Positions 9,001 through 12,000 of a stretch of 18,932 bases of DNA are shown here, piece by piece. The position numbers were made by a program. Location of the stretch: IMG/VR virus record IMGVR_UViG_2537561693_000022. One strand, given 5' to 3'. Every line of letters begins with the position of its first letter. Position 1 is the first letter of the stretch. Source of the DNA: a virus. Taxonomy: Duplodnaviria; Heunggongvirae; Uroviricota; Caudoviricetes.

Positions 9001-12000
9001 ATCGGGAGTTACTCAAAGCAGATTCGTTCGGCAATCGAAGATGGGGTAGTGGAGCCACACGAGCAGACAGCAATTAATGATGAGTTGTATCTGTCAATTT
9101 CGAAGCTCCAGGAGCATGCAGCACTGGTCTACAAAATCTTTTGCGCTCCAGAAAAGAGTGACGCCCGCGAGTGTGCAGCTCCGGGCGTCGTGGCGTTTTG
9201 TGTCTGTGGAGAAACTAACGCATGAACAGTTTAACGGCAAATAACCGTTTGTCGCAACAGCTGGTGGTCAGCGTCGCTGAACACCTGTTGTTACGGCATG
9301 AATGCAGATTACCAAATCTCCTGGCTGTAAGTAACCACAGAGAACTTTACCTGACTGTGGGGGGCGAGTTGTGCAGGAACTTAACCGCTGGTTTCGTGAC
9401 GGAAGAGGACTTTATGTTCATGTTATTCGTTGGGAGCCAGAAACACAGCGCGTTATCTATCTTCGCAAAGACTACCCGCATGAGTGCTTTAGCCCTTTGT
9501 GGAAATTCAGGCGTGATTTTGTTGAGTGTGAAGGACCACCAGCACATTGATTCTGCCATTCCGGGACGTTACACTGTTCAGGCACCTTATAAAGCGGGTG
9601 TCGGGATTGGCGTCCTGGAATTGCATACGGCGACAATTGGCGCGTTAGCGTCTTTTTTGTTGCTACAACTCAGCTATACCCAAATTATGGTGGGCTGGGT
9701 GGGGGCACCGAAAGGTGCGCCGGTTTCCGTATGCGCCGGTTACGCCAACCCTGCTCAGTTCACCACCAGCGAAATTGGCGTTTCCGGTGGTGGAAGTTAT
9801 CCATTGCATACGGAGGCTGCCATCATGGCTACTGTCCCAGCCCTCTCTCGTCTGAATGATGAAGACTTACATAAACTCAGTTATGTAACAACTGCACTAC
9901 GTGCTCTGCGCAAGGTAACTCTTTCGGATCCGCAGGCGCATCAGGTTTTGGTAGAAACCCTTCTTAACTTGCAGGCTGAACGTATTCGTCTGGCGGATAA
10001 GGCTAATTTTCATATTCACCGTCTCCTGAATATCAGCGGAGGGCATCGTCATGCTTAATCCGTTGATCCTCAATATTTGCCGTTTGCTTCAGCGTAAAAA
10101 AACATCAATTCCTACAGTTGGGCAGTGGTACACCACACCTGCAGGGCATGTTCTACGTGTTAGCCTGGTTGACCGTGAATGCCAGAAGGTGATTTGTGAA
10201 CCGCTGGGCCGTAATTACCGCGTCAGTATGCCGCTTATAGCCTTTCGCTCCGGAAAAAACATGAAGCATCTCGGAGGTGCAGCATGAGTATGGAGCTGAT
10301 GGTTAAAGCGATGAAAATTCGAGTGGGTAATCCATTGCGAAAACTGGTTCTGATCAAGCTGGCTGATAATGCCAGCGATCAGGGTGAGTGCTGGCCCAGC
10401 TACCAGCATATTGCTGACCAGTGTGAGATTAGCAAACGTTCTGTGATGAATCATATTGCGGCCCTTTGTGAGTCCGGGCTGGTAAAAAAAGTCACCCGGA
10501 AAGGTGAAAAAGGTAACTCAAGTAATATCTATCTCCTTCATCTGGATGGTGCAGGAGATTCACTAGGGGGTAGTGCAAATAATTCACTATCTGGTGCAGC
10601 AAATTCACTAGGTAGTGCAGGAGTTGCACCAGGGGGTAGTGCAGGAGATTCACCCAGAACCAGTCACTCTTTTGAACCAGTCAAAGAACCAGTCAAAGAA
10701 CCAGTCAATGAACCAGTCAATGAACCAATAGCTGTTGGTGCATCAGTTGATGAGTCCGTGCGAGTTCGTTCAAACCGACCGGAATACTCTCCGGAGTTTG
10801 AGCAGGCATGGCTGGCATATCCCAAACGTGCTGGTGGCAATTCAAAATCTGCAGCCTTCAAAGCCTGGAAAGCCCGTTTGAATGAGGGGGTAAACCCCGA
10901 AACCATGCTGGAAGGTGTGAAACGCTACGCGGGCTGGGTATCTGCGATGGGTAACAGCGGCACACAATTTGTGAAACAGGCTGTCACGTTCTTTGGTCCG
11001 GATCGTCATTTCGAAGAATCCTGGGAAGTTCCTGCGGTATCTGCAGCTAGACGTGAGGACCCGTACTTCAAAGCCAGTTACGACAACGTGGACTACAGCC
11101 AGATCCCGGCAGGATTCAGGGGGTGATCATGAGTCTTTTGAATGAAGTTCAGAAATTCATTGAAGCCCATCCGGGGTGTACTTCCGGAGACATTGCGGAT
11201 GCTTTTGCAGGTTACTCACGGCAGCGCGTTCTGCAGTCAGCAAGCAAGTTACGTCAGAGTGGGCGTGTGGCTCACCGTTGTGAAGGAGATACACGCAGAC
11301 ATTTCCCACGCCTGACTGAGAGAGCGCAGGAGCCGGAACCACAACCAGTTCGTGAAACCAGACCTGTGCGCAATTTCTATGTCGGCACTAACGATCCCCG
11401 GGTGATTTTGTGCCTGACCCGCCAGGCGGAAGAACTGGAGTCCAGGGGCTTATACCGTCGTGCTGCAACGGTGTGGATGGCGGCATTCCGTGAAAGCTAC
11501 TCCCAGCCAGAACGAAACAATTTTCTGGCGCGTCGTGAACGGTGTTTACGGAAAAGCAGTAAGCGGGCTGCATCAGGTGAAGAGTGGTATCTGTCAGGGA
11601 ATTACGTGGGGGCTTAATGACGACGTTAACTCAATGCCAGCAGCAGGTGCTGGATATGCTGATTTCTTACCAGAAAGAACGTGGCTTCCCGCCAACCAAT
11701 CAGGAGGTGGCAACCATGCTGGGATACCGTTCGGTGAATGCAGCGGTGGAGCATCTTCGCGCACTGGAGAAAAAAGGCGTCATCACGATAAAGCGTGGCG
11801 TGGCCCGGGGGATAACGCTTCATACCGCGGTGAAGGACGACGACAGCGAGGCTGTCGGGATTATCCGCTCACTGCTTGCCGGTGAGGAAAACGCAAGGCT
11901 GCGTGCAACCCACTGGCTACATGAGAGAGGCCTGAAAGTATGAAACTGATCCTGCCTTTCCCGCCCAGCGTGAATACGTACTGGCGACACCCTAACAAAG

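What the first reader, a model, noticed from the sequence alone, without database searches (positions are those of the whole stretch)
10549..10730. Two direct-repeat families inside the replication initiator gene, with no helicase-loader gene downstream
A 12-bp unit GAACCAGTCAA(A/T) is repeated ~4.5 times in tandem (10674-10730), preceded by a degenerate ~21-bp repeat family (10549-10655). In lambda the origin iterons lie inside gene O, so these may be the origin of this phage. They may equally be just a repetitive KEPV/SLGGSA linker. No P-like or DnaC-like gene follows; the next genes are PerC-like and LexA-DBD-like, so helicase recruitment would have to be by direct DnaB/DnaC hijack or by a factor outside this module.
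Basis: partly seen in the sequence, partly recalled or inferred. Interest (0 to 1): 0.4.

Follow-up and report, generated by a model that had tools for sequence, protein, structure and literature searches.

The report
Phage replication origin inside initiator gene
The repeats are real and are conserved as DNA rather than as protein, so they are most likely the replication origin of this lambda-like phage, written into the floppy linker of its own initiator gene: a familiar design in an initiator family where it had not been described.

Summary
Both repeat families are real and far beyond chance. The window is a lambdoid phage, 99% identical to Escherichia phage Ayreon and 96% to SfV. ORF 10284-11126 encodes a winged-helix initiator (Pfam HTH_36).

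The "degenerate 21-bp family" is five 15-bp dyad sites, GTGCA-N5-T(G/T)CAC, spaced 24/21/21/24 bp. The 12-bp array is a local expansion of a 37-bp element that is almost invariant across the family.

Across about 114 distinct homologous regions (Enterobacteria, Pseudomonas, Shewanella, Xenorhabdus and others):
- The sites recur in reversed orientation and in other reading frames.
- Their sequence tracks the initiator's DNA-reading helix, not its C-terminal domain.
- Synonymous codons are 90% identical in the 37-bp element, against 43% in the adjacent domain.
- GC3 collapses over this segment, which encodes a predicted disordered linker.

So the repeats are DNA elements, most likely iterons plus an unwinding or loading element, as in lambda ori/O. 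This is inferred, not shown by experiment.

No helicase, primase or loader gene lies anywhere in the window, although most relatives carry lambda-P-like or DnaC/DnaB genes directly downstream. The initiator's last nine residues match the conserved C-terminal tail of host DnaT. That suggests host DnaB-DnaC is recruited through this tail, which is speculative.

The parts
10284..11126 (+). Replication initiator gene (280 aa). It has an N-terminal winged-helix domain, a disordered linker and a helical C-terminal domain with a short tail. The ATG is preceded by GGAGG and overlaps the stop codon of the upstream 78-aa ORF.
   Evidence: ORF list and translation. Pfam HTH_36 scores 44.1 bits (cut-off 25) and DnaD_N 24.3 bits, below its cut-off. 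PHROG phrog_270 'replication initiation protein', E 3e-88. Annotated 'replication protein' in phages Ayreon and SfV (orf39).
10284..10547 (+). Coding region for the N-terminal winged-helix DNA-binding domain (aa 1-88). The presumed recognition helix is ...EISKRSVMNHI...
   Evidence: AlphaFold2 pLDDT 85-95 with an H-H-H-H-strand-strand topology. Foldseek returns winged-helix proteins, including the DnaD N-terminal domain (2v79) and the staphylococcal RepA N-terminal domain (4pql/4pt7), all at weak E of about 1e-2.
10549..10563 (.). Iteron 1, GTGCAGGAGATTCAC
10573..10587 (.). Iteron 2, GTGCAAATAATTCAC
10594..10608 (.). Iteron 3, GTGCAGCAAATTCAC
10615..10629 (.). Iteron 4, GTGCAGGAGTTGCAC. Its arms GTGCA/TGCAC are a perfect inverted repeat, so it matches on both strands.
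10639..10653 (.). Iteron 5, GTGCAGGAGATTCAC. It is preceded by a G5 tract (10632-10636). The 24-bp spacing to iteron 4 is the family-wide rule for the last pair.
   Evidence: The last pair is 24 bp apart in 91 of 114 distinct regions.
10654..10690 (.). Family-invariant 37-bp element, CCAGAACCAGTCACTCTTTTGAACCAGTCAAAGAACC. It is the candidate unwinding or helicase-loading element.
   Evidence: At least 29 of 37 positions match in 45 of 51 diverged genes. Codon identity at identical residues is 0.90 here and 0.43 in the N-terminal domain. Some Shewanella homologues read it in a different frame. It is the least stable 30-bp window on average: GC 0.40, A>T skew +0.31.
10674..10730 (.). Tandem 12-bp array, GAACCAGTCAA(A/T) x4.5. 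It is an expansion of the second half of the 37-bp element and encodes (K/N)EPV repeats.
   Evidence: Full units number 2 in 68 close relatives, 3 in 7, and 4 in 3 plus the window. Local GC is 0.38 and AT skew +0.41.
10527..10541 (.). Possible degenerate sixth site in reverse orientation (ATCTATCTCCTTCAT, 10 of 15 positions). Uncertain.
10779..11063 (+). Coding region for the C-terminal helical domain (roughly aa 166-260; motif YPKRAGGNSK...FFGPDRHF). It belongs to no Pfam family and is presumed to be the partner-recruiting domain.
11097..11123 (+). C-terminal tail SQIPAGFRG, matching the extreme C-terminus of E. coli DnaT (SQIPPGFRG). A mosaic joint with another initiator family lies just upstream, at 11051.
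11129..11943 (+). The two genes that occupy the position where relatives carry a loader or helicase: PerC-like (11129-11617) and LexA-DNA-binding-domain-like (11617-11943). Listed as context, not as parts of the origin.
   Evidence: Pfam PerC E 1.7e-8 and LexA_DNA_bind E 3.7e-19; Ayreon and SfV annotation.

Best explanation
Region 10549-10730 is the replication origin of this lambdoid phage. It sits inside the part of the initiator gene that encodes a disordered inter-domain linker. There are three steps.

1. The N-terminal winged-helix domain of the initiator, probably as dimers, binds the five dyad iterons GTGCA-N5-T(G/T)CAC. They are spaced 21/24 bp apart, about two helical turns, which puts them on one face of the DNA. 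This builds an O-some-like nucleoprotein complex. The anatomy and the co-variation are shown; binding is inferred.

2. The adjoining element, nearly invariant across the family, is CCAGAACCAGTCAC-TCTTTT-GAACCAGTCAA-(A/T)-GAACC. Here it is lengthened by extra 12-bp units. It is the least stable stretch, with the strongest strand asymmetry, and is where the duplex is opened or where a conserved partner lands. This is inferred. What binds it is unknown.

3. The C-terminal domain and tail bring in the replicative helicase. This phage encodes no loader or helicase, so it must use host DnaB-DnaC. The DnaT-like tail ...IPAGFRG-COOH is the candidate contact. This is a hypothesis.

Because the linker peptide tolerates almost any sequence, the DNA elements can flip, change reading frame and change copy number without destroying the protein.
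For: **Chance is excluded.** All five iterons and all five GAACCAGTCA copies fall in 10549-10719 and nowhere else in the window.

**The architecture is conserved.** In 114 distinct homologous regions there are 493 iteron copies. Spacing is mostly 21 bp (166 cases) or 24 bp (53 cases). The last pair is 24 bp apart in 91 regions and is followed directly by the invariant element.

**Selection acts on the DNA.**
- 14 copies are clearly reversed. For example, GTGCAGGAGATTCAC encodes GAGDS, while its exact reverse complement GTGAATCTCCTGCAC encodes GESPA (L015, L016, L029).
- 24 copies lie in another codon phase, giving VVQEIHQ in L008-L013.
- Shewanella L048-L051 read the invariant element in a shifted frame: HPEPVT instead of PRTSHS.
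- Codon identity at identical residues is 0.90 in the element against 0.43 in the N-terminal domain, over 965 diverged pairs.
- GC3 is 0.14 in the origin segment against 0.49 and 0.48 in its flanks. In Pseudomonas homologues it is 0.23-0.48 against 0.64-0.91.

**Specificity co-varies with the DNA-binding domain.** Among pairs whose C-terminal domains are unrelated (<25% identity), iteron similarity is 0.93 when the helix-turn-helix region is at least 80% identical, and 0.48 when it is below 60%. Discrete helix classes map to discrete iteron classes.

**The protein anatomy fits.** There is a confident winged helix (aa 1-88), a disordered stretch at aa 91-165 that is exactly the repeat-encoded part, and a helical C-terminal domain.

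**The family behaves as an initiator.** In relatives the gene is followed directly by lambda-P-like, DnaC/IstB-like plus DnaB-like, or primase-helicase genes. The type of C-terminus tracks the type of partner.

**The tail matches a conserved host motif.**
- It matches DnaT at 8 of 9 residues, at the extreme C-terminus of both proteins.
- It matches every position that is invariant in 18 DnaT orthologues.
- Three more distant carriers of the tail are each followed by a full-length DnaC that is 48% identical to the host's. Loaders next to other tails are about 30% identical and come with a phage DnaB.
Against: - There is no experimental origin mapping for this phage group in anything I could read.
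- The iterons lie about 150 bp from the helix-turn-helix coding region. Simple linkage would also produce co-variation.
- The invariant element is only moderately AT-rich (about 57-62%). Its recurrence as the stability minimum is not independent evidence, because the sequence itself is conserved.
- No DnaA box, IHF site or promoter was recognised (inspection).
- Copy numbers vary widely in prophages, with 1-9 iterons, so a strict number is not required. Some of these prophages may be defective.
- The association between the tail and the lack of a loader rests on few independent lineages. The 67 GFRG loci are nearly one clone. The second initiator family acquired the tail by recombination at window position 11051, so the tail could be a passenger of the downstream module.
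- The function of DnaT's own tail is not described in the papers I read.
- The C-terminal domain has no significant structural match.
Confidence: 0.72

Rival explanations
1. The repeats are only a slippage-prone, low-complexity coding linker (SLGGSA / KEPV) with no function as DNA.
For: The encoded peptide is predicted to be disordered. Copy number of both arrays varies among near-identical relatives in whole units.
Against: The peptide is not conserved but the DNA is. Copies are reversed or shifted in frame. Synonymous-site identity is 0.90 against 0.43. GC3 collapses over the segment against host codon bias. The 21/24-bp phasing and dyad symmetry are kept across classes with different sequences.
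Confidence: 0.03
2. The dyad sites are real binding sites for the initiator, but they serve autoregulation, copy control or incompatibility (operator or handcuffing sites). Initiation itself takes place elsewhere in the genome.
For: Iterons in plasmids do both jobs. No strongly AT-rich tract, DnaA box or IHF site lies next to them in this window. An Arsenophonus plasmid with the same module also carries other Rep genes, so the module's autonomy is not shown.
Against: No other iteron-like cluster exists in the window. The arrangement matches lambda/P22/L and RepA_N origins: iterons in the linker-coding region, then a less stable asymmetric element, with loader or helicase genes immediately downstream in relatives.
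Confidence: 0.1
3. The invariant 37-bp element is not an unwinding or loading site. It is a conserved joint kept alike by frequent homologous recombination, which swaps C-terminal domains and loader modules between phages.
For: It sits exactly at the boundary between the conserved N-terminal-plus-iteron cassette and at least six unrelated C-terminal modules. Mosaic joints inside this gene do occur, for example at 11051.
Against: Homogenisation would need ongoing exchange among Pseudomonas, Shewanella, Xenorhabdus and Escherichia phages, yet the flanking iterons and N-terminal DNA are diverged (43% codon identity). The internal repeat structure (GAACCAGTCA two or three times), the fixed 2-bp junction to the last iteron, and the local stability minimum with strand asymmetry point to a mechanistic role.
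Confidence: 0.12

Closest known systems
Phage lambda ori / O protein, and P22 and L gene 18
   Same: - Several roughly 15-20-bp dyad repeats lie in the middle of the initiator's own coding region, between an N-terminal origin-binding domain and a C-terminal partner-binding domain.
- Repeat sequence differs between phages along with the N-terminal domain.
- A less stable element follows on the promoter-distal side.
- Loader (P) or helicase (gp12) genes lie directly downstream in most relatives.
   Basis: established knowledge as summarised in PMC8022706; this work.
   Different: - The protein is not in the lambda O family. Pfam gives HTH_36 and a weak DnaD_N match, not Phage_rep_O.
- There are five sites of 15 bp at 21/24-bp spacing.
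- A 37-bp element is nearly invariant across all specificity classes and hosts. Lambda has only a generic AT-rich tract.
- This phage has no P, DnaC or DnaB gene at all.
RepA_N plasmid initiators of Gram-positive bacteria (pSK41 and pTZ2162 RepA)
   Same: - A winged-helix N-terminal domain resembling the DnaD N-terminal domain.
- Iterons located inside the rep gene, in the region encoding the inter-domain linker.
- A host-specific C-terminal domain that recruits host replication proteins without a plasmid-encoded loader.
The structural resemblance is a weak Foldseek hit to 4pql/4pt7. The location of their iterons is from my own knowledge of that literature.
   Different: There is no detectable sequence relationship. 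No RepA_N Pfam hit was found. The hosts are Gammaproteobacteria and the C-terminal domains differ.
Eru-type (non-lambdoid) replication regions of Shiga-toxin phages
   Same: HTH_36 proteins stand in place of O/P in types Eru5, 6, 8, 11 and 13. An Ash/Rha-family gene lies upstream, as it does here (PMC8951638). Stx2c, Stx1a and Stx2a phages are among the 95-96% identical matches to this window.
   Different: Those papers classify gene content only. They state that nothing is known about replication of these phages, and they report no iterons or origin.
E. coli primosomal protein DnaT
   Same: The last nine residues (SQIPAGFRG against SQIPPGFRG) match at every position that is invariant among DnaT orthologues. 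More distant phage carriers are followed by a dnaC homologue, which echoes the host dnaT-dnaC operon.
   Different: Nothing else is similar. The DnaT domain (PF17948) is absent and the BLAST match covers only the tail. What the tail does in DnaT is not known from the papers I read.

Membership tests
In-gene iteron origin of the lambda type (ori inside the initiator gene) | Three or more direct repeats of about 15-20 bp inside the initiator ORF, phased at about two helical turns | tested here: met
   Five sites at 10549-10653, spaced 24/21/21/24 bp. The same phasing holds in 114 homologous regions.
In-gene iteron origin of the lambda type (ori inside the initiator gene) | Each repeat has internal dyad symmetry, as expected for a dimeric binder | tested here: met
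   The arms are GTGCA / T(G/T)CAC. Iteron 4 is a perfect inverted repeat. Other specificity classes are also dyads, for example TGCCGTCAGATGGCA and GTGACACAGTGTCAC.
In-gene iteron origin of the lambda type (ori inside the initiator gene) | The repeats lie in the segment encoding a flexible linker between the DNA-binding domain and the partner-binding domain | tested here: met
   pLDDT is 25-30 for aa 91-165, against 85-95 for aa 1-88 and about 65-79 for aa 166-225.
In-gene iteron origin of the lambda type (ori inside the initiator gene) | Repeat sequence is conserved as DNA and co-varies with the initiator's DNA-binding domain | tested here: met
In-gene iteron origin of the lambda type (ori inside the initiator gene) | An adjacent AT-rich DNA-unwinding element | tested here: inconclusive
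   GC is 0.38-0.40 with a local stability minimum and strand asymmetry just after the last iteron. This is only moderately AT-rich, and the signal is not independent of sequence conservation.
In-gene iteron origin of the lambda type (ori inside the initiator gene) | The initiator binds the repeats, and the fragment supports replication | not testable with these tools
   This needs EMSA or footprinting and a minimal-replicon or marker-frequency experiment.
Lambda O protein family (Pfam Phage_rep_O) | Match to the Phage_rep_O profile | tested here: not met
   The Pfam scan returns HTH_36, DnaD_N (below cut-off), B-block_TFIIIC and HTH_20 only.
HTH_36 (PF13730) winged-helix proteins | Score above the Pfam gathering threshold | tested here: met
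   44.1 bits against a cut-off of 25, residues 17-67.
DnaD-like (DnaD_N PF21984; DnaD C-terminal fold) | Profile match above threshold, or a significant structural match | tested here: inconclusive
Initiator plus helicase-loader module (lambda O-P, or initiator with DnaC/DnaB) | A P-like (PF06992), DnaC/IstB-like (PF01695) or DnaB-like (PF03796) gene next to the initiator | tested here: not met
   None is present in the window or in 67 close relatives with at least 2.5 kb of downstream flank. One or more is present in most distant relatives.
DnaT (primosomal protein I, PF17948) | The DnaT DNA-binding domain | tested here: not met
   Only the last nine residues align. There is no PF17948 hit.

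The most novel reading that the evidence does not exclude
Two linked readings are not excluded.

(a) The motif D-x-x-I-P-x-G-F-R-G at the extreme C-terminus is a portable docking peptide for the DnaC-DnaB helicase-loading complex. Host DnaT and several families of phage initiators share it. Initiators that lack their own loader, like this one, would then load the host helicase by imitating the replication-restart protein. This would also assign a function to the uncharacterised, invariant tail of DnaT, at a step (DnaB/DnaC recruitment by DnaT) that the recent preprimosome paper calls unknown (PMC13377028).

(b) The GAACCAGTCA element, invariant from Shewanella to Pseudomonas to E. coli phages whatever loader they encode, is a sequence-specific landing or melting site. 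It would be read by a conserved part of the initiator, or by a host factor common to Gammaproteobacteria. This would be a second, universal half of a two-part origin.
Probability: 0.3. Interest if true: 0.72.

Novelty: new member of a known kind. Interest (0 to 1): 0.48.

Why it matters
This initiator family is very large: 5591 protein clusters with E below 1e-5. It replaces lambda O/P in many E. coli and Shigella prophages, including SfV and Shiga-toxin phages among the 95-96% identical matches. The literature I could read says nothing is known about how these phages replicate (PMC8951638).

Locating the origin gives exact targets for replicon tests and for incompatibility or interference studies. 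It also helps in asking how replication drives toxin-gene dosage after induction.

The family offers a natural experiment in initiator-iteron specificity, with at least six helix/iteron classes. It is also a clean example of a DNA element overprinted on a disordered protein linker.

The DnaT-tail observation gives replication-restart researchers a cheap, testable idea for how DnaT hands over to DnaB-DnaC.

Tried and rejected
- **Sequence search of the PDB with the initiator:** nothing meaningful.
- **NCBIfam:** only sub-threshold HTH regulators.
- **Pfam on the C-terminal domain and on nine other C-terminal module types:** no family.
- **Rfam on 9800-11800:** no hit at E up to 1.
- **Promoter scan of 10000-11300:** none. 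One weak terminator-like site on the minus strand at 10507-10492.
- **Literature:**
  - The exact motifs GAACCAGTCA and GTGCAGGAGATTCAC appear only in irrelevant papers.
  - The tail IPPGFRG/PAGFRG is not discussed anywhere.
  - The SfV genome paper and the Weigel & Seitz review of phage replication modules are not held. I cannot exclude that they mention these repeats or an 'initiator-solo' class.
- **Eru2A** (Llarena 2021) was considered as a match and rejected. It is a Phage_rep_O protein followed by DnaB.
- **Plasmid test:** I looked for a plasmid whose only replicon is this module. The Arsenophonus 28-kb plasmid has the same iteron-plus-element architecture, but it also carries RepL and another Rep gene, so it proves nothing.
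- **DnaA boxes, IHF sites and GATC clusters** in the element were checked by eye. None is convincing.
- **'GFRG tail means no loader'** was rejected as a strict rule. Three metagenomic carriers of the tail have a DnaC gene downstream. The idea was reformulated as 'GFRG goes with a true DnaC, either the phage's or the host's'.
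Full report
**What the window is.** It is a lambdoid temperate phage, 99% identical over 3.5 kb to Escherichia phage Ayreon. It is 96% identical to Shigella phage SfV and to Escherichia phage 2H10, and about 96% to a series of Stx2c-converting phages. Phage mEp460 matches at 97.6% over 85% of the stretch.

It runs from the integrase (386-1624) through cI (7665-8339, minus strand), a CII-like gene, an Ash-family gene and a 78-aa ORF to ORF 10284-11126. After that come PerC-like, LexA-DNA-binding-domain-like, RusA, KilA-N, DUF968/HNH, Q, a DNA methylase and the lysis genes.

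ORF 10284-11126 is annotated 'replication protein' in Ayreon and SfV (orf39). It matches Pfam HTH_36 (44.1 bits) and PHROG 'replication initiation protein' (E 3e-88). It does not match the lambda O family.

**The observation.** Both repeat families are present at the stated coordinates.

The '21-bp degenerate family' is better described as five 15-bp sites matching GTGCANNNNNTKCAC, starting at 10549, 10573, 10594, 10615 and 10639. Their spacing is 24, 21, 21 and 24 bp. These are the only matches in 18.9 kb, where 0.07 are expected by chance.

GAACCAGTCA occurs five times, at 10657-10719, and nowhere else. Four of the copies form the 12-bp tandem run. The fifth lies 17 bp upstream of it.

**Is it DNA or protein that is conserved?** I collected 56 loci from one-genome-per-species bacterial contigs and more than 230 from viral contigs.

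Distant homologues from Phytobacter, Leclercia, Enterobacter, Pseudomonas, Shewanella, Marinomonas, Xenorhabdus, Erwinia, Microbulbifer and others share a strongly conserved N-terminal domain. Their C-terminal domains are unrelated and fall into at least six types. Between the two domains lies the same architecture: 3-6 dyad repeats followed by a nearly constant stretch, CCAGAACCAGTCACTCTTTTGAACCAGTCAATGAACC.

Four results show that selection acts on the DNA.

1. *Orientation.* Copies occur in reverse orientation. The window's iteron GTGCAGGAGATTCAC (peptide GAGDS) appears as its exact reverse complement GTGAATCTCCTGCAC (peptide GESPA). It is the last copy in L015/L016 and every copy in L029. 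Among 493 copies in 114 distinct regions, 14 are clearly reversed.

2. *Reading frame.* 24 copies lie in a different codon phase, for example '...VVQEIHQ...' in Pseudomonas L008-L013. Shewanella L048-L051 read the constant stretch in a shifted frame (HPEPVT instead of PRTSHS), with compensating indels.

3. *Synonymous sites.* Over 965 diverged pairs, codons for identical amino acids are themselves identical in 43% of cases in the N-terminal domain, but in 90% of cases in the constant stretch.

4. *Codon usage.* Third-position GC is 0.14 in the origin segment of the window, against 0.49 and 0.48 on either side. In Pseudomonas homologues it is 0.23-0.48 against 0.64-0.91.

The encoded peptide is predicted to be disordered: pLDDT 25-30 for aa 91-165. 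It lies between a confident winged helix (aa 1-88) and a helical C-terminal domain. This explains why the DNA can be rearranged without harming the protein.

**What reads the iterons?** Iteron sequences fall into discrete classes that follow the presumed recognition helix:

| Recognition helix | Iteron |
|---|---|
| ISKRSVMNHI | GTGCAGGAGATTCAC |
| IGRSTVKSHV | GGGCAGGAGCTGACC |
| IARSTVKVHI | GGGCGGCAGATAACC |
| IDRSTVRKHI | TAGGCCCAGAAAGCA |
| CSKSAVRSHI and relatives | TGCCGYCAGATGGCA |
| ISKRSVMRHI | GTGACAGAGAGTCAC |

Iteron similarity tracks the helix-turn-helix region even when the C-terminal domains are unrelated. It is 0.93 when the region is at least 80% identical and 0.48 when it is below 60% (Mantel r 0.52).

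Physical linkage could contribute to this correlation. Even so, the pattern matches the one known for lambda, P22 and L, where each initiator binds its own iterons inside its own gene (PMC8022706).

**The constant element and the 12-bp array.** The element starts 2 bp after the last iteron in every specificity class, whatever loader the phage encodes. Whatever uses it is therefore common to all of them. That could be a conserved part of the initiator, a host factor shared by Gammaproteobacteria, or a physical property of the DNA.

It is on average the least stable 30-bp stretch within about ±400 bp (GC 0.40), and it has a marked A-over-T asymmetry. By position, it corresponds to lambda's unwinding region.

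I found no DnaA box, IHF site, promoter, hairpin or Rfam match.

The window's 4.5-copy array is an expansion. Among close relatives, 57 have three GAACCAGTCA copies, 7 have four, and 4 (including the window) have five.

Iteron number also varies in E. coli prophages, from 1 to 9. The commonest form, a cluster of 2852 sequences, has five.

**The missing loader.** In distant relatives the initiator is followed directly by one of the following:
- a lambda-P-like gene (15 loci);
- a DnaC/IstB-like gene (14 loci), usually with a DnaB-like helicase (15 loci);
- a primase-helicase (2 loci);
- an unknown 267-aa protein (5 loci).

The type of C-terminus follows the type of partner. Nothing of the kind exists anywhere in this window, nor in the 67 close relatives with enough flank. 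This phage must therefore use the host helicase and loader.

One lead emerged. The initiator ends ...DYSQIPAGFRG, and E. coli DnaT ends ...PDSQIPPGFRG. Among 18 DnaT orthologues at 71-87% identity, I, P, G, F, R and G of this tail are invariant. The one variable position is the one that differs in the phage.

The same tail, on 96%-identical DNA starting at window position 11051, is attached to a different E. coli phage initiator with its own repeats. That initiator also has no loader nearby.

More distant C-terminal domains end PDK(T/K)IP(A/D)GFRG. All three that could be placed on contigs are followed by a full-length DnaC 48% identical to the host's, with no DnaB in the 0.4-4 kb of flank available downstream (one of these DnaC genes is cut by the contig end). 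Loaders next to other tails are about 30% identical and come with a phage DnaB. This echoes the host dnaT-dnaC operon.

I therefore propose that the tail contacts DnaC or the DnaB-DnaC complex. The independent lineages are few. The tail could instead be a passenger of the downstream module. The function of DnaT's tail is not described in the papers I read.

**Comparison with known systems, and novelty.** In how it works, this is a lambda-type origin overprinted on the initiator gene. In family membership, it is not lambda O. It is an HTH_36 winged-helix protein with a weak resemblance to the DnaD N-terminal domain. Its organisation also recalls the Gram-positive RepA_N plasmids (plus my own knowledge of that literature).

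The Shiga-toxin phage 'Eru' papers list HTH_36 proteins in place of O/P. They state that nothing is known about replication in these phages.

I found no description of these iterons or of the constant element.

**Verdict.** This is a new member of a known kind. The two open features (the universal element and the DnaT-like tail) could make it more interesting than that if they hold up.

Noticed in passing
window 11097-11123 (last 9 codons of the initiator): The initiator ends SQIPAGFRG, matching the extreme C-terminus of E. coli DnaT (SQIPPGFRG). The motif I-P-x-G-F-R-G is invariant in 18 DnaT orthologues. I found no description of its function.
   Followed up: partly
window 11051 onward; L219 3584-4525: A mosaic joint lies inside the 3' end of the initiator gene. 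A different 313-aa E. coli phage initiator (N-terminus MSTKLTGYVWDG...) has its own in-gene repeats, CCGTCAAAATCTGAC, and no GAACCAGTCA element. It shares 96%-identical DNA with the window from 11051 through the PerC-like gene and beyond. None of the 80 such loci has a loader or helicase within 4 kb.
   Followed up: partly
loci L003-L218 (initiator C-termini and downstream genes): Across the family, the last four residues of the initiator go with the downstream partner:
- DPLI or SDDL with lambda-P-like;
- NLNF, DCNW or xxNF with IstB-like plus DnaB;
- NAFL or NEYL with an unknown 267-aa protein;
- GFRG with no loader.
Some tails (EDPLI) resemble the acidic-hydrophobic tail of SSB.
   Followed up: partly
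L008:3893-4699 and equivalents in L010-L012, L023: In Pseudomonas prophages a conserved 267-aa protein with no Pfam family occupies the loader position directly after the initiator. It may be an undescribed helicase loader.
   Followed up: no
window 1777-3372 (-): A 531-aa early-left protein with a cytidine/dCMP deaminase zinc-binding domain (residues about 252-435; PHROG 9198, unknown function). This is unusually large for a deaminase.
   Followed up: no
window 4107-4727 (-): This gene is a DUF551 protein by Pfam, but its counterpart in the phage Ayreon record is labelled 'valyl-tRNA synthetase'. That is probably an annotation error.
   Followed up: no
between window 11617 and the LexA-DBD-like gene; L002 6594-7247: SfV and most of the Stx2c phages carry an extra 654-bp gene here. 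The original SfV record calls it 'dam' and RefSeq calls it a PAPS reductase. The window and Ayreon lack it.
   Followed up: no
L299 3788-4561 (Arsenophonus nasoniae plasmid paNv_CH13, 28 kb): A circular phage-plasmid-like record with ParM/ParR carries the same module: GGTGACAAAAAYGACA-type iterons, then CGAATCAGTCATATAGAACCAGTCA, followed by a DnaC-like ATPase. It also carries RepL and another Rep gene.
   Followed up: yes
proteins P0027, P0040, P0048, P0051-P0053: Some prophage copies encode fusions of the initiator's N-terminal part to PerC-like, Dam or RusA sequences. These imply deletions or frameshifts through the origin region in decaying prophages.
   Followed up: no
window 10632-10636 and equivalents in the homologues: A G5 tract, or C5 when flipped, almost always sits between the penultimate and last iteron. 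It accounts for the constant 24-bp final spacing. Its role is unknown.
   Followed up: no
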